A stretch of DNA of 64,000 nt from a virus (lineage: Duplodnaviria; Heunggongvirae; Uroviricota; Caudoviricetes), in IMG/VR virus record IMGVR_UViG_2925939204_000001. One strand, given 5' to 3'. A program made the translations under genes and the position numbers. Of the stretch, positions 2,475 to 37,491 are shown piece after piece (position 1 is the first letter of the stretch; every line of letters starts with the position of its first letter). The notes under the pieces are model-generated. The model ran no database searches and was not told the DNA's origin. It worked only from the letters and a program-made list of their open reading frames with translations.

Positions 2475-2804
2475 ATGGGCTATAGCAGACTCGACGATAG
2501 GTACATTGAAGACGATATTTTTCGTGCGCTGTTTCACCAGGAAATGATTAAGCGGGTATCGGAGTATCACTCTGATAATTTCCAGTACACGATAAAGATT
2601 GATGAAGTATATCGTTCAGACCTTGCAGCCTACAGGGCGTATGGCAATGCAGATTTGCGCTGGGTATTCCGGGTGCTGGTGGGCCATGAGTCAGAAATGG
2701 AAGAAATGCCCGCCGGGACCACGTTAACTCTTCCTGATGTGGCATGGCTGAGGAACAAGATCCGTGATTACGCGAGCGCGGAACCGGAGATAGAAAATGC
2801 CTGA
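2475..2804 (+). CDS. hypothetical protein, translationally coupled to the next gene
   Basis: ORF track; ATGCCTGA overlap with the 2797 start. Confidence 0.5.
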   Translation: MGYSRLDDRYIEDDIFRALFHQEMIKRVSEYHSDNFQYTIKIDEVYRSDLAAYRAYGNADLRWVFRVLVGHESEMEEMPAGTTLTLPDVAWLRNKIRDYASAEPEIENA

Positions 2805-3990
2805 TTTCCTGAAAAACCAGGACGGGCGCTATATCACTGACGGCCTGTCCTCTAAGGACTTCACGCGTTTATTCGAGCTTATCAGGAAAGAACAAACCCG
2901 TAAGCGCCGACAAGCTCACCGGACGCTGACGCCAGGTAGACTGAGGAACAAATCCGCCGAAGATATTCTCAAGTTAGGGAAGAAAAAAGGCGGCACGTTC
3001 TTCACGCGAGACGACCTGAAAGGTTTCGAAAAGCTACGGAGTAAAACGCGCGAAAAATATGACAGCAAGACGGCTGGCATCACATACGCCCAGCTGGTGG
3101 CATCCAGCCAGGCAATCGATATTAAGCGTGCAAATAACGCCGTGGATGACGGATCTGGTATCAAAAGAGCTACACCCGTATCTCTTCGCCACAACGTGAT
3201 TAATATCCGCGTAGAAGCATCGGATATATCCGTCCACCAGCACCATATCGTCCGGATACGCTTTGAAGAATGGGATCAGATGGTCGATAACATCGCAGAA
3301 GACGATAAATCAGCTCTGAAAATCACTAAATCACTGTGCGCCGGGCGGGTGTCTTTCGATTGTGACTGTGGTCGTCATCAATACTGGTATCGTTACATCG
3401 CTACTGCGGGTAACTTTGCCCTGGCCCCGCCAAAAGAATACGCCTATCCAAAAGTTCGCAACCCGAAGCTGCAAGGCGTCGCCTGTAAACACGTGATCCA
3501 CTCAATGACGCGGTTACAGTCCGCCAGTTGGCAAATGAGTATTGCTCGTGCGCTACAAAAGGCTGCAACGCAAATTGCATTTGGTGACGATCGCCGCCGT
3601 ACAACCAAACACTTCTCAAAAGAAGACGAGAAGGAGTTTAATCGCAATCGTAGCAGTAAAACGAACGTTGAAGCCGCCAAACGCGAATGGAGGCTCTATC
3701 AGAAGCGCCAGGCAGCTTTAAGTACAAAACTGGCAAAGGACAACGGCAAGATCGACAAACTACGTGACCAATTGACCAAGGCCAGAAAGTTGTCAGATGC
3801 ACAGAAAAAACGGGCGGCAGCAAAAGAAGCGGCCTTGCAACGTGAGAAACAGAAAAACAAGGAGCTTCAGCAACGCCTTGCCGATCAGTTCGCACTGAAG
3901 AAGCAGGCGTTCATTGATGCGCTTGTCATGGCTGGAACACCACCAGCACAAGCTGAAAAAATGTTCATGGAGTATGTAAAAAAAGCATAA
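2797..3990 (+). CDS. SWIM-type zinc-finger protein with a highly charged coiled-coil C-terminus
   Basis: CxCx(n)CxH pattern FDCDCGRHQYW...GVACKHVIH; K/R/E-rich C-terminal 120 aa. Confidence 0.5.
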   Translation: MPDFLKNQDGRYITDGLSSKDFTRLFELIRKEQTRKRRQAHRTLTPGRLRNKSAEDILKLGKKKGGTFFTRDDLKGFEKLRSKTREKYDSKTAGITYAQLVASSQAIDIKRANNAVDDGSGIKRATPVSLRHNVINIRVEASDISVHQHHIVRIRFEEWDQMVDNIAEDDKSALKITKSLCAGRVSFDCDCGRHQYWYRYIATAGNFALAPPKEYAYPKVRNPKLQGVACKHVIHSMTRLQSASWQMSIARALQKAATQIAFGDDRRRTTKHFSKEDEKEFNRNRSSKTNVEAAKREWRLYQKRQAALSTKLAKDNGKIDKLRDQLTKARKLSDAQKKRAAAKEAALQREKQKNKELQQRLADQFALKKQAFIDALVMAGTPPAQAEKMFMEYVKKA

Positions 3991-3997
3991 ACCACAC

Positions 3998-4034
3998 ATA
4001 GCCTAGCTGCCTAGGCTAGGCTTTCATCTTTTTG
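3998..4034. terminator. hairpin AGCCTAG-ctgc-CTAGGCT followed by a T-tract, between convergent genes
   Basis: Inverted repeat at 4000-4017 then ...tttcatctttttg. Confidence 0.45.
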
Positions 4035-4752
4035 AAAAATCAATTTCCGTTTTATCAAATAAATTTGAAATATCAGCAACCAATTTATTAAAATCATGAT
4101 CGCCATTATAAAGCGAAGTCTTCTTTATTGCCATTACAAAATCATATAACTTTTCTGGGGAGTCAATACCAACCCCTCTACTTTTAAAAAGCTCAATGAT
4201 AACTCCAACATCATCATATAATAACTTTATTGCCGCCATAATCTCTTTTTGCTGCCTAAGCAATCTCTCAAGTTCATTTTTATTTTCATCCATAATTCTT
4301 TTGTTGAATTGTGTATCATTAATACTTTTTATTATTTCAGCCTCTTTTATTTGCAACGCCTTTCTTTTATTTTGATCCATGTCAGCATCCAAATACCTTA
4401 TCTCTGTGTATATTTTACTTGTTAGCTTTGATACGCAAAGAGTGACAATCGGAGCTGCAATTGATGCAATAATTCCAAAAATAAATGGCAAGAAAAAATG
4501 ATAAAACCAAGGAGACAAAACGCCTTCATAAACTAGAGGAATCTTACCTCCAACAAATGTTACAGATAAAGTATATAGGATATCATCCTTTGACTTCATC
4601 AATATTAGTATATCTTTCCAATTAATAATTAGAAAAGAAATTAATATATATGCAAACACTTTATTAAAAAGCTTGTCTTTTATGGCATCTCCAAAAGATA
4701 CTTTGATTAGATCATTTTCAGTCAATTTTTCTGTTGATGAATCTGTATTCAT
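4024..4752 (-). CDS. AT-rich membrane protein (two predicted TM helices) with cytoplasmic coiled-coil; candidate abortive-infection/exclusion effector
   Basis: Strongly AT-rich coding region versus neighbours; hydrophobic segments VFAYILISFLIINW and WFYHFFLPFIFGIIASIAAPIVTLCV; K/E-rich heptad C-terminus. Confidence 0.5.
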   Translation of the reverse strand: MNTDSSTEKLTENDLIKVSFGDAIKDKLFNKVFAYILISFLIINWKDILILMKSKDDILYTLSVTFVGGKIPLVYEGVLSPWFYHFFLPFIFGIIASIAAPIVTLCVSKLTSKIYTEIRYLDADMDQNKRKALQIKEAEIIKSINDTQFNKRIMDENKNELERLLRQQKEIMAAIKLLYDDVGVIIELFKSRGVGIDSPEKLYDFVMAIKKTSLYNGDHDFNKLVADISNLFDKTEIDFSKR

Positions 4753-4814
4753 ATAAACTACCGTGATTTCTAATATCTATTTTATGAAAATAGCTGTCAT
4801 CCAGACCGCCAAAC

Positions 4815-5174
4815 TCAAATACCAACCAAGCTTTCAAGAGGAATGCCAAACTGGGAATGTAAACGGCGAATCATAGGTAACGTCAAATTTCGTGTCCCAT
4901 TTAGCACTTCGTAAACACGATTTGACTTACCAATCGCCGGCTCCAGATCCTTCACGGTCAGCCCTTGCTGTTCCATACGGAATTTAATGGCCTCAATAGG
5001 TGATGGTGGCTCAATTGGGTAATGTTTTTTCTCGTACTCCTCAATGAGAAGACTCATAACCTCAAAGAAATCACCTTCCGGAGTATTCATTTCCGGTTCG
5101 TTATCGAACATCGGTTCGACCGCACGCAGTGCGGCCTCATAATCTTGTTCTGTACGGATAGGTTTAATGTTCAT
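4815..5174 (-). CDS. HigA-like HTH regulator/antitoxin (N-terminal domain plus C-terminal HTH, YgjM/COG5499 architecture), no cognate toxin adjacent
   Basis: C-terminal segment GLTVKDLEPAIGKSNRVYEVLNGTRNLTLPMIRRLHSQFGIPLESL matches the HigA C-terminal HTH pattern. Confidence 0.55.
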   Translation of the reverse strand: MNIKPIRTEQDYEAALRAVEPMFDNEPEMNTPEGDFFEVMSLLIEEYEKKHYPIEPPSPIEAIKFRMEQQGLTVKDLEPAIGKSNRVYEVLNGTRNLTLPMIRRLHSQFGIPLESLVGI

Positions 5175-5186
5175 TAATTACAAAGG

Positions 5187-5220
5187 AAAGCCCACTTGCT
5201 AAGTGGGCTTTTTGTATGTG
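5187..5220. terminator. palindromic hairpin AAAGCCCACTT-gcta-AGTGGGCTTT separating higBA from the downstream HTH gene
   Basis: Perfect 10-bp inverted repeat flanked by U-rich sequence on both strands. Confidence 0.5.
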
Positions 5221-5230
5221 TTTTACTATA

Positions 5231-5569
5231 TCAGGCTGCTTTTTTATTCAGGTTCCGCTGAGAAATAAATTTTTCAGCAGTATTGATACGACTTAACTCT
5301 TCCTGGACGCGCATATCATTTTCGACTTCCCACAGATCTACTGCGGTCTGAAGATTAATCCAAAAATCTACAGAAGTATCGAATGCTTTTGCCAGGCGAT
5401 ATGCCATATCCATCGTTAGCTTACGATTGTTATTAACAAGAGCGCTTACGGTGTTACGATGAACATGAAGTATTTCTGCTAACTCGTTGATCTTCAGCTC
5501 TAACGGCTCCAGGTATTCGTACAGCAGGATATCACCTACGGTCGTCGGTTTTCTGGTTGCCTGTTTCAT
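5231..5569 (-). CDS. higA: HigA-family antitoxin (XRE HTH, COG3093-type)
   Basis: HTH region LAEILHVHRNTVSALVNNNRKLTMDMAYRLAKAFDTSVDFWINLQ; directly downstream of the HigB-like toxin. Confidence 0.75.
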   Translation of the reverse strand: MKQATRKPTTVGDILLYEYLEPLELKINELAEILHVHRNTVSALVNNNRKLTMDMAYRLAKAFDTSVDFWINLQTAVDLWEVENDMRVQEELSRINTAEKFISQRNLNKKAA

Positions 5570-5639
5570 TTTTTGCCCTTACTAGCGTGCGTATTAAGTG
5601 GACTCTGGTCAGAACCCGGTCCGTAACCGGGTATCTGTT

Positions 5640-5942
5640 TTAGTATTTGTGAGGGTCGAGATACAAGTCCTCGGCCTTTCCGTTAACCCACTTAAAAATT
5701 AACCTATATTGCTTATTCACCCTTACTGATGAATAGCCATTTAGCTTCCCTGACAGTTCCTCATACCGATTACCTGGTGGTGATCTTAAATCCTTACAGG
5801 TAGTTGCGGCATTGATAATGTCCAACTTCCGTGACAATGTCATATGAATATCAGGAGGTATCTTTCTATGTGGTGTTGAAAATTCAAAAAAATCATCAAG
5901 CCACGCATCCCTGAAATCCTTTATGTTAATTTTTTTGGTCAT
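5640..5942 (-). CDS. higB: HigB toxin (RelE/ParE fold, plasmid maintenance killer family)
   Basis: C-terminal pattern NRYEELSGKLNGYSSVRVNKQYRLIFKWVNGKAEDLYLDPHKY typical of HigB; toxin-upstream-of-antitoxin order. Confidence 0.8.
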   Translation of the reverse strand: MTKKINIKDFRDAWLDDFFEFSTPHRKIPPDIHMTLSRKLDIINAATTCKDLRSPPGNRYEELSGKLNGYSSVRVNKQYRLIFKWVNGKAEDLYLDPHKY

Positions 5943-6104
5943 TAGTCATTTGATCCTCCGTGATGATTACCGAATGCCATAACTATAGCGCACCGTTGCA
6001 CTGTGCGCAAGTGCATTTTATGAATTCCCCCTCCTTCATCCAAAATCACAATCTCCCGAAAATCTTCCTTTCGATACCTGACAGATCGACCTTTGAGGAT
6101 GCTT

Positions 6105-6896
6105 ATGGGCCGTTTTGACGAATGGTTTGCTGACGATGCAAACCTGGCAAGTAAGGAGTCAGAACATGACAGCACGCAGAGAGAAACGCCAGCGCCGATT
6201 GAAGCGAATGCAGGAGGCGCGCCGGAACATGGCAATACCGGTTCGGATTCATTCAGCATTCTGGAAGAGCAACCCGCCGCCAAAGCTGATAGCCATGATA
6301 ATTTTGCTGATAGCAACGGTGGCCTTACTCCGGATGCTGGCGAATCAGATATAGCCATACTTCCATCTTCCCTGGCTGGCAGAGAACCGACTCCACAGTT
6401 AAAAGCACGCTATAACGGGCATAAAGCCTTTAACGACCAAATCCGCGCAGACTGGATGCTGATTATTGAATCCAGCCCAGACGCGTTTCAGGCTCTCTTA
6501 TATCGACCAGATGTTGGCACATATGGGGTAGTCAGCGACGAAACAGGAGAAGAGTCATTCACTGAACTGGATAACAACCAACGCGAACTGACTTACCAGG
6601 AACCTGAAATCGTTTATGTGCTGGATAACCCTGACGGGCGTGACTCTTTCCATGCGATTGACGCAGACGGTGAGCAGGATGGCTTAACCGATGATGTTCT
6701 GATTCTGCGTATTGCAGCAAATAACGTCCCCGTCGGCTCAATTCTTGAATGGAATGAAGAGATGGTAAACGGCGTAGCGCGCCGCTGGTGGTACGTGCAC
6801 CGTATTTTTAGCTACGGCACACAGCATGTTGGTTCGCTTTACTACTGCATACCTGCCAGGAATTTTGATACGACTCAAAACGGAGTGATCGAATGA
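6105..6896 (+). CDS. phage protein with acidic low-complexity N-terminal half
   Basis: ORF track (6093); ATG at 6105 has better GAGG spacing. Confidence 0.5.
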   Translation: MGRFDEWFADDANLASKESEHDSTQRETPAPIEANAGGAPEHGNTGSDSFSILEEQPAAKADSHDNFADSNGGLTPDAGESDIAILPSSLAGREPTPQLKARYNGHKAFNDQIRADWMLIIESSPDAFQALLYRPDVGTYGVVSDETGEESFTELDNNQRELTYQEPEIVYVLDNPDGRDSFHAIDADGEQDGLTDDVLILRIAANNVPVGSILEWNEEMVNGVARRWWYVHRIFSYGTQHVGSLYYCIPARNFDTTQNGVIE

Positions 6897-28310: not shown

Positions 28311-28607
28311 TTGAGGGCATTTTTTACATCATCAATCCATCAGCAATGAAGGCATTCTTTACATATTTCAATAATATCAATCAGTTAACACAGTGAATGA
28401 TAATAAAAAAGCGCAATAAGAATGCACGATACGCACGATATTGGTTGAGGGCGATTTTTACATAATCCTTACATATCAATATGTTATATAAAAACACAAC
28501 TTGCTAATAACGAGATACATGCAATTAAGATGTAAAAATTGCCCTCAATTGCCGATCGTTAAGGGCAAATTCTACACCTTGAGAGGGGTGTAAAAATTGC
28601 CCTTAAG
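28311..28607. repeat. iteron cluster downstream of repA (copy-control locus candidate): five or more copies of the ~19-bp TGAGGGCAA-T-TTACA(CC) iteron in both orientations
   Basis: Copies at about 28311, 28445, 28529 (inverted), 28558, 28588 (inverted). Confidence 0.6.
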
Positions 28608-29391
28608 ACTGCTGATAGGTAAATTTTATCCTGGTAACTTTGCCGCCTTCCGTCACCTCTGAGAAGACTATTTTCATTTTTGTATTTTTTTCAATCTCTG
28701 CTACAGCCTTCGTTAAAAAACTTCTCTTAAATTCGGCATACCGCTGATAGCTTTTTGGTAACCCATAACGCTCCCGCATCCATTCGACGCCAAGTATGGC
28801 AAAGCCGCTTCCATCATCCTTCCTGTACTGGCATAAGGACTCATAAAGCCGCATAGAATAAGGATTTGTAAGGCGAGATACTTCGGTAAAATTCAGCCTT
28901 GTGAATCTCTTATCAAGCAGAGTAAAAAACGGCATGAGATATGGATTAAGATGAATAATGTAAGTCCCGCGCCGTGGTGAATAGGCATCCTTAATCATCC
29001 AGGGATAAGACTCATAACTGTCTTCTGATTCGGTCGATTCATCAGGGTTATATATCGTAACTTTCTTCTCGCTAAGACCTGAAATGGCCTTACGAATATC
29101 CTTGCTGGCTTCAGCAGAGGGCAAATTATACATCTCTGCATATTCGTTGACCGTCAACTCACAGGCACCTGAACCAAGAACGCCATCCTTAGAAGCATAG
29201 CGAAGTCTTCCCACCACAATAAACAACAGTCGCTTTTGGTCGCGAGTCAGGTGATAAGCAGCCTCCGTGATCTCATTGGCTTGTGCCAGACTACGACTAA
29301 TAGGTGTCGCTGACTCAATCAGGCTGACGGCTTTTGCTGTTAATTCCGCTCTGTTCATAACCCTGTGTGATCCTTCAAATGGTGAGGGCAA
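28603..29391 (-). CDS. repA: plasmid replication initiator, Rep_3 family (F RepE-like)
   Basis: Similarity to F RepE as recalled (EAAYxLxRDQKR, SAEASKDIR, YESxPW, NPYxMRLYESLCQYRK, DGSG, LPxSYQR); probable true start is the internal ATG at 29358. Confidence 0.85.
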   Translation of the reverse strand: MPSPFEGSHRVMNRAELTAKAVSLIESATPISRSLAQANEITEAAYHLTRDQKRLLFIVVGRLRYASKDGVLGSGACELTVNEYAEMYNLPSAEASKDIRKAISGLSEKKVTIYNPDESTESEDSYESYPWMIKDAYSPRRGTYIIHLNPYLMPFFTLLDKRFTRLNFTEVSRLTNPYSMRLYESLCQYRKDDGSGFAILGVEWMRERYGLPKSYQRYAEFKRSFLTKAVAEIEKNTKMKIVFSEVTEGGKVTRIKFTYQQS

Positions 29392-35208: not shown

Positions 35209-36635
35209 CGATTACCGAATTACTCGACAAATTTAATACCAAGCTGAATGAAAATCCCTGGTGGTCACGGTTTGTAAACAGTCAGTTTGTACAGATGCAG
35301 GCGGTGTTCGGTGCGCAGGTGATTTATATTGCACGCACATTTGCAAGTCGTGCTCTGACCGAGGGATTTATTTCAACTGCCACACGGAGAGCAAGCATTT
35401 TAGCGGGAGCTGAAGACCGCAGTTACGTCGGGAGATTTGTGAGTGCTTCATACGGCACAACTTCGATAACGAATAAAACAGATCGGGATATAACGTTGCC
35501 TGCGGGAGCTGAGTTGCTTGCCAGCGACCAAACGCCACTTGCAATTATTAACAGTGTTGTTGTTCCAGCCGGGGGGGCTGTACACGGTGTCGAAACCAAA
35601 CAGCATGAAGCTGTGAGCGTGACATTTGATGTTGAAAAAGAAACCCCCTTTCTTACGCTGTTGCTTTCCAGGGAACTGACAAAAGAAGTGTCCAGCCTCG
35701 ATGTTACTGTGATTATTAATGGTGCAGAAGAGAAATGGACCTACAACCCATTATTTCGAATGTCAAGGGACAAGAGCAAACACTATGTATTGGCATATAA
35801 GCCAACGGAACAACTTGGCGTTAAATTTGGCGATGGTTCTATGGGTATGATGCCGCCAGCTGGGTGCCAGGTGCGAATTGATGTAATGGCAAGCCTCGGT
35901 GACTACACTTTGGCTGAAGGTCAAAAGTTAGAACCTGCTGGAAATATTGCGCAATATGTGGAGTCACTGGAATTTAAAACCGATTCGATTATTACCGGAG
36001 GCGGTGGAATGGAAACCACAGAAGAAACCCGAAACCGTGCACAGTATTATGTTGCCTACGATGAACAAGTCGTATGGGGAGGTGATTATCGTCAATTCAT
36101 TCAGAACGCGGTACACGGTACGTCATGGCTTAACGTTTGGGGTGAAGCGTTACAAGAAAAAATAACCGGATTTGATGTGCGCAACATCAATAAGATTTTC
36201 TTTTGTGGGCATAAGCCGGGCGTAAGCCAGGAACAATTAAAGTCAGAAATACTTAAATCCCTGGAGAATGTGCCAAATGAATTGAACAAGCGGTTCGAAT
36301 ATGTGGACACAAATGAACAGCCATTTACTATAAATTTCACAGGTATTGCACGTAAAAACGTTCTGATAGATGACGCCAAAAACGCCATTAAAAAGGCGTT
36401 AGAGGATAATTTTGGTCGTGATTCATCTTCATTTAGTTTGTTGTTACAGAGTGATGATGATTCCCAGCAATGCTATGCGCAGGTAAAAGTTAAAGATATT
36501 TGGCGTGTTATAGAATCACTGGATATGTTTCTCTCTTACGATATTACAACACAGAATATGAAGGATGCTGTTTACTTCAATGACTTTATTTATCTTGACG
36601 TAAATTCATCTGCATTCAATATTTCCTATCCGTAA
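35205..36635 (+). CDS. baseplate protein candidate (gpJ-like size)
   Basis: ORF track; overlapping-stop coupling. Confidence 0.35.
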   Translation: MTITELLDKFNTKLNENPWWSRFVNSQFVQMQAVFGAQVIYIARTFASRALTEGFISTATRRASILAGAEDRSYVGRFVSASYGTTSITNKTDRDITLPAGAELLASDQTPLAIINSVVVPAGGAVHGVETKQHEAVSVTFDVEKETPFLTLLLSRELTKEVSSLDVTVIINGAEEKWTYNPLFRMSRDKSKHYVLAYKPTEQLGVKFGDGSMGMMPPAGCQVRIDVMASLGDYTLAEGQKLEPAGNIAQYVESLEFKTDSIITGGGGMETTEETRNRAQYYVAYDEQVVWGGDYRQFIQNAVHGTSWLNVWGEALQEKITGFDVRNINKIFFCGHKPGVSQEQLKSEILKSLENVPNELNKRFEYVDTNEQPFTINFTGIARKNVLIDDAKNAIKKALEDNFGRDSSSFSLLLQSDDDSQQCYAQVKVKDIWRVIESLDMFLSYDITTQNMKDAVYFNDFIYLDVNSSAFNISYP

Positions 36636-36645
36636 TGAGGCTGAA

Positions 36646-37491
36646 ATGAAAGAGAATTGGTTTAAGGAGCGGTTAACTAAAGCAAAACAGGATTCTAAGC
36701 TCTGGAGCGCCTTTATAGGCGCTTTACATGAAGTCTGGGATGAAGCTGTAGAACCAATATTAACAAGAATAAGTAACAGAAAATCCTTCTTCACTATGGA
36801 CAGTGAGGATATGGATGCCCGCATTGCTGAATACGGGCGTTTTTTCGTTATCACTGAAAAAGATAAGGCCCGTAGGCCAATGCTTCTGGCACAACGTTTA
36901 GATGAAGTGCACTTTAAAGGCACTATCCTGCCTATTGAGCAGACATTCTGGCGTGAATTCGGTTGTATTCCTGTAAGTTGGGAACCGCTGTATGCTCCTG
37001 TAAATATAGAAAAACACCCCTATGGTTCATATTTTGCGACCGAAATAGAGATACCAACTGCACAGTCTCAATTCGGTGAGTTCTTCCTGACATCAAGGGG
37101 GCTGGTCGTTGTTGATCAGAACAAGCTATATCGCTCATATGGAGAGCAGGATCGAGAAGCTGCTGTGCAGAAATTGTTATCTGACTTCGAAACAGTAATA
37201 GCCCCATTGTTGCCATTGCATATTATTTTTGATGGCGTCTCGTTTCGGCTTAGTGCAGTATTCCCTGAAGTGGCAGAAATACTAAATTGCTTGTCTACGG
37301 ATATTTCGGTAATTGAAGGTGTTTATGTTACTGAGAGTATGGCTGATATGCTATCCCATAGTGATACCTCCTGCCAGGCAGACAATATTTCTCTTAACGC
37401 CATACCGAACCGAACGGCAGAAAAGCAATTACATCTTGATGTAACCCCACTCGATGCGTGGCCTTTGGATTACCACCTTCAACCTGTTTAA
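36646..37491 (+). CDS. baseplate/tail protein candidate
   Basis: ORF track. Confidence 0.35.
   Translation: MKENWFKERLTKAKQDSKLWSAFIGALHEVWDEAVEPILTRISNRKSFFTMDSEDMDARIAEYGRFFVITEKDKARRPMLLAQRLDEVHFKGTILPIEQTFWREFGCIPVSWEPLYAPVNIEKHPYGSYFATEIEIPTAQSQFGEFFLTSRGLVVVDQNKLYRSYGEQDREAAVQKLLSDFETVIAPLLPLHIIFDGVSFRLSAVFPEVAEILNCLSTDISVIEGVYVTESMADMLSHSDTSCQADNISLNAIPNRTAEKQLHLDVTPLDAWPLDYHLQPV

What the first reader, a model, noticed from the sequence alone, without database searches (positions are those of the whole stretch)
4024..5174. Orphan HigA-like regulator next to an AT-rich membrane protein: candidate toxin/abortive-infection module
The 4815..5174 protein has HigA-like architecture but no RelE-type partner; the adjacent higBA pair is a complete separate unit with its own terminator. 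Immediately downstream is a 242-aa protein with two TM helices and a coiled-coil tail, in by far the most AT-rich stretch of the window, pointing to foreign origin. The HTH gene has no Shine-Dalgarno and begins 11 nt after a strong hairpin.
Basis: inference. Interest (0 to 1): 0.6.

Follow-up and report, generated by a model that had tools for sequence, protein, structure and literature searches.

The report
Orphaned HigA antitoxin beside swappable membrane gene
The two genes are not a toxin/antitoxin pair: the regulator is an antitoxin left behind when its toxin gene was swapped out in this P1-like phage-plasmid, and the AT-rich membrane gene is a separate, frequently exchanged prophage add-on of unknown function.

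Summary
The window is phage-plasmid D6 (99.4% identity). The ORFs are real, the HTH protein is HigA-like, it has no Shine-Dalgarno and starts about 12 nt after a strong hairpin, and the membrane gene is the most AT-rich stretch (29% GC).

The proposed pairing does not hold. In sibling D6-like plasmids the same 119-aa protein (97-98% identical) lies 3 nt downstream of a PF09907 HigB toxin, behind twin TCCCA-N3-TGGGA palindromes. In D6 that toxin, its promoter and the ribosome-binding site were replaced by a different higBA cassette with a terminator. This explains the hairpin and the missing SD.

The orphan is decaying. Of 89 plasmids with the swap, 71 have lost the HTH domain. Other copies carry a nonsense or frameshift mutation.

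The membrane gene follows the old higBA terminator and exists as at least 6 alleles (35-60% identity) in about 98% identical backbones. It is absent from some siblings. It occurs alone in other prophage slots, plasmids and a chromosome.

It belongs to a small uncharacterised enterobacterial family with no Pfam, NCBIfam, PADLOC or fold match. A role in phage exclusion or defence is plausible but untested.

Interest is modest.

The parts
2797..3990 (+). Tail gene 25 homologue (D6 orf74); one flank of the accessory slot
   Evidence: phrog_1722 tail protein, E=2e-196. D6 annotation. In P1, gene 25 is followed 4 nt later by gene 7 with nothing between them.
3999..4022 (.). Inverted repeat between the convergent ends of gene 25 and the membrane gene (bidirectional terminator-like)
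   Evidence: Terminator scan on both strands.
4024..4752 (-). MEM: 242-aa two-TM plus coiled-coil protein (D6 orf73, phrog_8191). A hypervariable, self-contained accessory gene of an uncharacterised family
   Evidence: GC is 29.2%. At least 6 alleles of 35-60% identity occupy the same site.
4772..4800 (-). Promoter-like site (ATGACA, 17 nt spacer, GATATT) upstream of MEM, overlapping the 3' arm of the hairpin. Consensus match only
   Evidence: 9 of 12 matches. Not tested.
4791..4811 (-). Remnant of the terminator of the ancestral higB-higA operon (GGCGGTC N5 GACCGC[C] plus T-run). It is weakened by one mismatch in this window
   Evidence: Conserved in siblings. Folds with z=-1.9 to -2.8 in L003, L004 and L008, but z=-0.7 here. 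In MEM-less L005 it directly abuts the end of gene 25.
4815..5174 (-). Orphaned HigA antitoxin of the E. coli YgjM type (D6 orf72): N-terminal toxin-binding domain plus C-terminal HTH. It lacks its toxin, operator and Shine-Dalgarno here
5178..6043 (-). Swapped-in segment: promoter, PF05015 higB, TIGR02607 higA and hairpin. It replaces about 395 bp (promoter with twin palindromes plus PF09907 higB) found in sibling plasmids
   Evidence: Homology breakpoints in alignments A7 and A9.
5187..5211 (.). Strong hairpin ending the swapped-in higBA cassette, 12 nt before the orphan HigA start codon
   Evidence: -17.9 kcal/mol, z=-4.0.
5231..5569 (-). HigA antitoxin (TIGR02607 type, N-terminal HTH), cognate to the PF05015 HigB
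5640..5942 (-). HigB toxin (PF05015, RelE-like)
6093..6896 (+). Tail gene 7 homologue (D6 orf69); the other flank of the slot
   Evidence: phrog_1906, E=2e-116. D6 annotation.

Best explanation
Two independent modules lie side by side in an accessory slot cut into the P1-type tail operon, between genes 25 and 7, on the opposite strand.

(A) Gene 4815..5174 is a YgjM-type HigA antitoxin. Its ancestral operon survives in sibling D6-like plasmids. That operon has a promoter with two TCCCA-N3-TGGGA palindromes, then a PF09907 higB (PD-lambda-2A-like), then a 3-nt gap, then higA, then a terminator hairpin.

In the D6 lineage a recombination event replaced the promoter, the operators and higB. The incoming piece is an unrelated cassette: PF05015 higB, TIGR02607 higA and its own terminator hairpin. 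The right-hand junction falls about 4-8 nt upstream of the higA ATG.

That event removed the Shine-Dalgarno and placed the hairpin next to the start codon. The gene is therefore a relic without toxin, operator or translation signal, and it is being lost in the lineage. These steps are shown by comparison. That the palindromes are HigA operators is inferred.

(B) Gene 4024..4752 is a separate unit downstream of the old higBA terminator. It encodes an N-in/C-in two-TM inner-membrane protein. The membrane part is conserved (55% mean identity). The cytoplasmic coiled coil and C-terminal helices are hypervariable (23-27%).

Whole alleles are exchanged by recombination among prophage accessory slots. 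These are two P1-like slots, a lambdoid tail-fibre slot, plasmids and a chromosome.

Inferred only: it is expressed from the prophage and acts alone in exclusion or abortive defence against incoming phages or mobile elements. In that model the membrane hairpin is the effector or anchor and the variable cytoplasmic part sets specificity.
For: Identity of the element: 99.4% to phage D6.

Cognate toxin in siblings. L003-L007, L025-L027, L030 and L031 carry a PF09907 HigB directly before a 97-98% identical HigA. The Shine-Dalgarno GGAG lies in the 3' end of higB.

Swap breakpoints lie at about 6043 and about 5178.

The palindromes are present in all 10 PF09907 loci. They are absent from every PF05015 locus and from the whole D6 genome. 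D6 also has no PF09907-like HigB anywhere.

Decay of the orphan:
- Orphan copies show 23 nonsynonymous against 68 synonymous differences from the consensus. Partnered copies show 4 against 87.
- L024 has Q69* and L028 has a frameshift.
- A 66-aa HTH-less remnant is present in 71 of the 89 plasmids that carry the swap junction.

Independence of MEM:
- A terminator-like hairpin is conserved after higA, and it directly abuts gene 25 in MEM-less L005.
- MEM stands alone between genes 7 and 25 in L038 and L041.
- MEM stands alone in L009, L036, L049 and L052.
- Alleles are swapped in a second P1-like slot: 31% identity inside a 98% identical backbone.
- Regional conservation profile; GC 29%.
Against: No expression or phenotype data exist, so MEM function is inference from context only.

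MEM has no match in PADLOC, Pfam, NCBIfam, PDB or BFVD.

HigA and MEM are adjacent in three divergent versions: D6 type, L029 type, and a HigA fragment in L033. This leaves room for a functional link.

The orphan ORF in this window is intact, with only three conservative changes, so it may still be made and used.

All four HigA-inactivating events spare the N-terminal domain. This could be chance (about 0.06) or could hint at a residual role.

The surveyed loci are not phylogenetically independent. The common truncation is probably one event.
Confidence: 0.7

Rival explanations
1. The HTH protein is the dedicated regulator or antitoxin of the membrane protein, and the two form a two-gene toxin/abortive-infection module.
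For: The genes are adjacent and on the same strand, with a 62-nt spacer. The orphan ORF is intact in this window. An inverted repeat CTATTTTCATAAAATAG lies between the promoter-like hexamers upstream of MEM.
Against: MEM is intact in 71 plasmids whose HTH domain is deleted. MEM is also intact in loci where the HTH gene carries a stop or a frameshift.

MEM homologues have no HTH neighbour in L009, L036, L038, L041, L048, L049, L051 and L052.

HigBA exists without MEM.

HigA is 97-98% invariant while MEM alleles differ by 40-65%, so there is no co-variation.

The HigA-type palindrome is absent upstream of MEM.
Confidence: 0.06
2. HigB(PF09907)-HigA-MEM is, or was, a three-gene defence cassette comparable in logic to PD-lambda-2 (a HigB-like and a HigA-like component plus a third component needed for defence). 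On this reading the D6 window holds a broken version.
For: The trio occurs with two very different HigBA pairs: D6 siblings and L029, whose HigB proteins are 26% identical.

A HigA N-domain fragment travels with a MEM allele into a different slot in L033.

The sibling HigB hits PD-Lambda-2_A at 2.6e-42. HigA hits positions 1-119 of PD-Lambda-2_B at 4e-43. PD-lambda-2 needs its third gene for defence (PMC9519451).
Against: HigA here lacks the peptidase domain that defines PD-lambda-2B. MEM is unrelated to PD-lambda-2C and to every PADLOC model.

A terminator-like hairpin separates higA from MEM. Each part occurs without the other. MEM persists after loss of HigB and of the HigA HTH.

The L033 fragment is explained by an imprecise recombination tract.
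Confidence: 0.15
3. The orphan HigA is retained on purpose as an anti-addiction or anti-defence factor. It would neutralise the PF09907 HigB of competing sibling plasmids or of host HigB-based systems. This would let a D6-type plasmid displace them without post-segregational killing.
For: The orphan is 97-98% identical to the partnered antitoxin. It is intact in D6, L008 and L020-L023. Both plasmid types circulate in the same hosts. All inactivating events spare the toxin-binding N-terminal domain.
Against: The gene has no Shine-Dalgarno and no own promoter, and a strong hairpin lies directly upstream. Nonsynonymous change is elevated and there are several independent disruptions. The chromosomal E. 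coli HigA is only distantly related (E=8e-8), so cross-neutralisation of host HigB is unlikely.
Confidence: 0.12
4. MEM is a virion-assembly or lysis accessory of the phage, for example a holin-like or tail-associated membrane protein.
For: It sits inside the tail/baseplate gene block, and in several P1-like elements at the same place. It is a two-TM protein.
Against: It lies on the opposite strand to the late operon. It is absent from P1 and from D6-like L005 and truncated in L023 and L030. Homologues occur on non-phage plasmids and in a chromosome. It is AT-rich and of foreign composition. It has no Pfam or PHROG holin match.
Confidence: 0.04

Closest known systems
E. coli K-12 HigB/HigA (YgjN/YgjM; PDB 5IFG, 5YCL), the PF09907 HigB family with its HigA
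   Same: The 119-aa protein aligns over residues 6-112 with HigA (E=8e-8). It has the same layout: an N-terminal helical toxin-binding part and a C-terminal XRE HTH. In sibling plasmids it sits directly after a PF09907 HigB, behind palindromes in the promoter.
   Different: In this window the toxin, the promoter palindromes and the Shine-Dalgarno are gone. The protein is shorter (119 against 138 aa) and only distantly related in sequence.
PD-lambda-2 anti-phage system (Vassallo et al. 2022, PMC9519451)
   Same: The orphan protein matches the first 119 positions of the PD-Lambda-2_B model (E=4e-43). The sibling-plasmid HigB matches PD-Lambda-2_A over its full length (E=2.6e-42). Both are three-gene arrangements with a third gene downstream.
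   Different: There is no C-terminal peptidase domain (119 aa against a 402-position model). The third gene is a membrane protein unrelated to PD-lambda-2C. The PF05015 HigB of this window does not match PD-Lambda-2_A.
Plasmid Rts1-type HigB/HigA (PF05015 / TIGR02607)
   Same: The swapped-in pair 5640..5942 / 5231..5569 is a standard member. The literature treats it as a post-segregational killing system of D6-like plasmids (PMC6799933).
   Different: It is the cassette that displaced the orphan's own toxin.
Prophage 'morons' and superinfection-exclusion membrane proteins (e.g. T4 Imm, P22 SieA, HK97 gp15; recalled from general knowledge, not tested)
   Same: MEM is a small inner-membrane protein encoded by a prophage on the strand opposite to the late genes. 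It is AT-rich, dispensable, highly polymorphic, and placed next to tail genes.
   Different: There is no sequence or fold similarity to any described family. MEM has a long cytoplasmic coiled coil, and no phenotype is known.

Membership tests
YgjM-type HigA antitoxin (partner of PF09907 HigB) | C-terminal XRE-type helix-turn-helix | tested here: met
   Pfam HTH_3, residues 63-115, E=3.4e-5, 24.2 bits against a cut-off of 23.
YgjM-type HigA antitoxin (partner of PF09907 HigB) | Full-length homology, including the N-terminal toxin-binding domain, to solved HigA | tested here: met
   phmmer against PDB: 5IFG_B and 5YCL_A, E=8e-8, query residues 6-112. phrog_1373 over residues 1-117, E=4e-43.
YgjM-type HigA antitoxin (partner of PF09907 HigB) | Encoded immediately downstream of its HigB toxin in one operon | tested here: not met
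   Not met in this window: the upstream gene is another HigA plus a hairpin, and there is no PF09907-like HigB in the whole D6 genome. Met for the 97-98% identical protein in 10 sibling loci.
YgjM-type HigA antitoxin (partner of PF09907 HigB) | Palindromic operator(s) in its own promoter | tested here: not met
   TCCCA-N3-TGGGA occurs twice upstream of higB in the siblings (once in L025). It occurs nowhere in the window or in the D6 genome. That these palindromes are the operators is inferred.
YgjM-type HigA antitoxin (partner of PF09907 HigB) | Neutralises HigB toxicity | not testable with these tools
   Needs co-expression of the sibling HigB with orf72.
PD-lambda-2 defence system | Component B is a HigA-like HTH fused to a C-terminal peptidase | tested here: not met
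   The match covers only profile positions 1-119 of 402, and the protein ends at residue 119. Domain description from PMC9519451.
PD-lambda-2 defence system | Component A (HigB-like) is encoded upstream | tested here: not met
   The window's HigB (PF05015) has no PADLOC hit. Only the sibling PF09907 HigB matches PD-Lambda-2_A.
PD-lambda-2 defence system | Component C (P4-antitoxin-like) is encoded downstream | tested here: not met
   MEM has no PADLOC match.
Two-gene toxin/antitoxin (or Abi) module HTH + MEM | Conserved co-occurrence of both genes | tested here: not met
   MEM occurs without an intact HTH gene in 71 plasmids and in at least 8 other contexts. The HTH gene occurs without MEM in L005.
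Two-gene toxin/antitoxin (or Abi) module HTH + MEM | Operon organisation or coupling | tested here: not met
   A 62-nt spacer holds a conserved terminator-like hairpin and a promoter-like site.
Two-gene toxin/antitoxin (or Abi) module HTH + MEM | Toxicity of MEM and neutralisation by the HTH protein | not testable with these tools
   Needs inducible expression.
Known anti-phage defence, Abi or exclusion protein families | Sequence or fold match of MEM to a described family | tested here: not met
   PADLOC gave no hit for the window protein. Across 26 family members it gave only coiled-coil noise and one 2TM-effector hit (E=4e-4 across the 26; the L029 homologue scanned separately gave E=0.0012). 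Pfam and NCBIfam gave none. Foldseek against PDB and BFVD gave no hit below E=1.
Rts1-type HigBA (PF05015 + TIGR02607), the neighbouring pair | Toxin and antitoxin domains, gene order toxin then antitoxin, own terminator | tested here: met

The most novel reading that the evidence does not exclude
The membrane protein represents a new single-gene family. It is a membrane-anchored phage- or plasmid-exclusion (or abortive-infection) determinant. A conserved two-TM hairpin acts as effector and a hypervariable cytoplasmic coiled-coil/C-terminal part acts as sensor.

Whole alleles are shuffled among prophage accessory slots of enterobacterial P1-like and lambdoid phages and plasmids. D6-like phage-plasmids, which carry almost no recognised defence systems (bioRxiv 10.1101/2025.09.12.675607), would then carry an unrecognised one.
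Probability: 0.3. Interest if true: 0.55.

Novelty: new member of a known kind. Interest (0 to 1): 0.3.

Why it matters
The case is a clean example of how toxin-antitoxin cassettes replace one another on phage-plasmids. The replacement leaves an orphan antitoxin that then erodes. That erosion explains the odd local signals here, namely the missing ribosome-binding site and the hairpin at the start codon. These signals could be mistaken for a special regulatory design.

It also warns against reading 'orphan HTH next to a membrane protein' as a module without comparative data.

The membrane gene is the more interesting part. It belongs to a small, unnamed enterobacterial family: 48 representatives at 50% identity among 1.84 billion proteins. 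It shows the population signature typical of conflict genes, being AT-rich, dispensable, multi-allelic in near-identical backbones, and resident in prophage accessory slots.

If it proves to be an exclusion or defence gene, it would add a new single-gene system. It would also give a phenotype to a widespread clinical group of E. coli, Salmonella and Shigella phage-plasmids.

Tried and rejected
- Pfam, NCBIfam, PADLOC and PHROGs scans of MEM and of 26 family members gave only coiled-coil noise (SMC/JetC/LmuB, ZapB and similar) and PHROG families of unknown function.
- A profile search of PDB sequences gave only coiled coils. The best hit was EnvC at E=6e-4, over the long helix.
- AlphaFold2 with 7 sequences gave pLDDT 59, and with 30 sequences pLDDT 72. 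Foldseek of the better model against PDB and BFVD found nothing below E=1. The afdb50 library was unavailable.
- A weak PADLOC '2TM effector' hit came from the L029 homologue (E=0.0012 when scanned alone; E=4e-4 was the best of 26 members). I judged it compositional.
- I considered filing the locus as PD-lambda-2 because of the 4e-43 hit. I rejected this because only the HigA-like third of component B is present and components A and C do not match.
- I looked for HigA-type palindromes upstream of MEM and anywhere in D6, and found none.
- I looked for the P1 C1 operator consensus in the window, and found none.
- The first genome-contig scan with the wide alignment failed for lack of a conserved stretch. 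The narrower alignment found one chromosomal locus.
- The D6 genome paper is not in the held library. Papers that mention D6-like higBA treat it only as an addiction system.
Full report
**What the window is.** The region 3500-6500 is 99.4% identical to Escherichia phage D6, a P1-like phage-plasmid. It is 99.1-99.5% identical to four Salmonella/E. coli plasmids and 92-93% identical, in two pieces, to many more.

The neighbouring pair is orf71/orf70. All four genes lie on the strand opposite to the tail genes that flank them: gene 25 at 2797-3990 and gene 7 at 6093-6896. In P1 itself genes 25 and 7 are 4 nt apart with nothing between them. The four genes are therefore an insertion into the tail operon.

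**Checking the observation.**
- The ORFs exist as stated.
- The 119-aa protein has an HTH at residues 63-115. Its full length aligns to solved E. coli HigA (5IFG/5YCL, E=8e-8).
- The upstream pair is a complete PF05015 HigB plus TIGR02607 HigA.
- That pair ends in a strong hairpin at 5187-5211 (-17.9 kcal/mol, z=-4.0).
- The orphan's ATG lies 12 nt after the stem and has no purine-rich Shine-Dalgarno.
- The 242-aa protein has hydrophobic segments at 32-52 and 83-107 and a predicted long helix from 81 to 193.
- Its gene has 29.2% GC. The lowest 729-bp window in the 64 kb falls on it (28.9%), and the next lowest elsewhere is 37.6%.

**Where the HTH gene comes from.** Homologues of the membrane protein led to sibling D6-like elements. 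In L003-L007, L025-L027, L030 and L031 the same slot holds a 100-aa PF09907 HigB. It is followed after 3 nt by a 119-aa protein that is 97-98% identical to the window's HTH protein.

In those loci the Shine-Dalgarno GGAG for higA lies in the last codons of higB. Two TCCCA-N3-TGGGA palindromes lie 30-75 nt upstream of higB (one in L025). They occur in all ten such loci and in no locus of the D6 type.

The sibling HigB matches PD-Lambda-2_A (2.6e-42). The HTH protein matches only the first 119 of the 402 positions of PD-Lambda-2_B. The remaining positions of that model are the peptidase domain that defines the component (PMC9519451).

Alignments place the breakpoints between the two arrangements at about 6043 and at about 5178. 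The second breakpoint is about 4-8 nt before the higA ATG.

In the D6 lineage the promoter, palindromes and PF09907 higB (about 395 bp) were therefore replaced. The incoming segment is about 865 bp and carries a different promoter, PF05015 higB, TIGR02607 higA and a hairpin.

The complete D6 genome has no PF09907-like HigB and no copy of the palindrome.

**The orphan is eroding.** I compared each copy with the consensus. Partnered copies carry 4 nonsynonymous changes, all the same A107S, against 87 synonymous changes. Orphan copies carry 23 against 68.

L024 has a stop at codon 69. L028 is frameshifted.

The commonest D6-like variant has lost the whole HTH domain. It leaves a 66-aa ORF made of residues 1-59 plus 7 new ones. 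In the plasmid collection, 89 records carry the D6-type junction and 71 carry the HTH-deleting junction. About 21 records keep the PF09907 arrangement.

These counts are not phylogenetically independent. The deletion is probably one event that spread. The copy in this window is intact, with three conservative changes.

**The membrane gene is a separate unit.** A hairpin GGCGGTC-N5-GACCGC(C) followed by a T-run lies directly after higA. It is conserved across alleles and folds better than shuffled sequence in siblings (z=-1.9 to -2.8). In this window it is weakened by one mismatch.

In L005, which has higBA but no membrane gene, this hairpin abuts the end of gene 25. It is therefore the higBA terminator, and MEM lies beyond it. 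A promoter-like site overlaps its 3' arm, but this is a consensus match only.

At this slot MEM exists as at least six alleles of 35-60% identity, inside flanks that are 96-100% identical. It is truncated in L023 and L030 and absent in L005.

The membrane part (residues 26-112) keeps 55% mean pairwise identity. The coiled coil and C-terminal part keep 23-27%.

**MEM elsewhere.** The family is small. It has 48 representatives at 50% identity among 1.84 billion proteins, essentially all enterobacterial. Homologues occur in these settings:
- alone between genes 7 and 25 of Enterobacter P1-like elements (L038, L041);
- beside lambdoid tail-tip and tail-fibre genes in Kluyvera (L049);
- in an H-NS/DUF4942 accessory region (L036);
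- near umuC/SRAP genes (L052);
- between asr and a carboxypeptidase gene in an Enterobacter chromosome (L009);
- in a second P1-like slot (bplB/pmgC) after a TacAT pair in Citrobacter-type phage-plasmids (L033, L048, L051).

In that last slot the alleles are again swapped. They are 31% identical inside a 98% identical backbone.

One allele (L033) brought with it a 68-aa fragment of a HigA N-terminal domain. The fragment is 41% identical to the L029-type HigA. I read this as debris from an imprecise recombination tract.

L029 is a more distant P1-like phage. It has a divergent HigB (26% identical), a 139-aa YgjM-like HigA, and MEM in the gene 7/25 slot.

The HTH protein is not a dedicated partner of MEM. 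Each gene occurs without the other. MEM survives repeated loss of the HTH domain. HigA is nearly invariant while MEM alleles diverge strongly. A terminator lies between them. No HigA-type palindrome precedes MEM.

The recurrent adjacency of YgjM-type HigA and MEM keeps a three-gene-cassette rival alive at roughly 0.15. A second rival holds that the orphan is kept as an anti-addiction factor against sibling plasmids. That rival is possible but is weakened by the absence of translation signals and by the decay.

**Function of MEM.** No described family matches by sequence or fold. The AlphaFold model (pLDDT 72 with 30 sequences) shows a helical membrane hairpin that continues into a helix of about 110 residues, followed by two short C-terminal helices.

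My proposal of an exclusion or abortive-defence role rests on context only:
- prophage accessory slots on the non-late strand;
- AT-rich composition;
- dispensability;
- multi-allelism, with variation concentrated in the cytoplasmic part.

I put this at about 0.3. A 2025 survey found almost no recognised defence systems in D6-like phage-plasmids, so an unrecognised one would be of some interest.

**Verdict.** The orphan status and the foreign origin are right. The two-gene module is not.

The HTH gene is an ordinary antitoxin orphaned by TA-cassette replacement. The membrane gene is an uncharacterised, swappable prophage add-on. Overall interest is 0.3, and novelty is 'new member of a known kind'.

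Noticed in passing
window 5997-6015: Inverted repeat TGCACTGTGCGCAAGTGCA lies in the promoter region of the swapped-in PF05015 higBA, just upstream of a TATAGT -10-like hexamer. It is probably the operator of the TIGR02607 HigA.
   Followed up: no
window 5942-6358 (minus strand): A 138-aa ORF overlaps the higB promoter and the start of tail gene 7 on the opposite strand. It is Ala/Ser-rich and is not annotated in D6, so it is probably spurious.
   Followed up: no
L003 4246-4289 and the same place in 9 other loci: Twin palindromes TCCCA-N3-TGGGA, 31 nt apart, lie in the promoter of the PF09907 higB-higA operon of D6-like plasmids (only one copy in L025). They are candidate HigA operators and are absent from all D6-type loci.
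   Followed up: partly
L033 3710-3916: A 68-aa ORF encodes only a HigA N-terminal domain (41% identical to the L029 HigA, residues 23-80). It sits between a TacAT pair and a MEM allele in a Citrobacter-type P1-like phage-plasmid. Sister backbones L048 and L051 lack it.
   Followed up: partly
L024, L028, L002, L033: All four independent disruptions of the orphan HigA remove the HTH domain and leave the N-terminal domain ORF open. They are Q69*, a frameshift near codons 52-62, a deletion after codon 59, and the L033 fragment. This could be chance (about 0.06) or could hint at a residual role for the N-domain.
   Followed up: partly
L038 and L041 (Enterobacter): These are degenerate P1/D6-like elements carried on large plasmids. 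In L038 tail gene 25 is broken and an IS lies nearby. In L041 the gene 7 N-terminus is fused to methyltransferase-like sequence. Both still keep an intact MEM homologue in the 7/25 slot.
   Followed up: no
L003 5001-5828 (protein P0004): This is called as a 275-aa protein in the source. The conserved start MSTDSS at 5049 gives about 259 aa, so the longer call is probably an upstream mis-start.
   Followed up: no
window about 36137-36865 and about 28339-29067: These are the next most AT-rich 729-bp stretches of the window (37.6% and 38.3% GC). They may be further acquired accessory genes.
   Followed up: no
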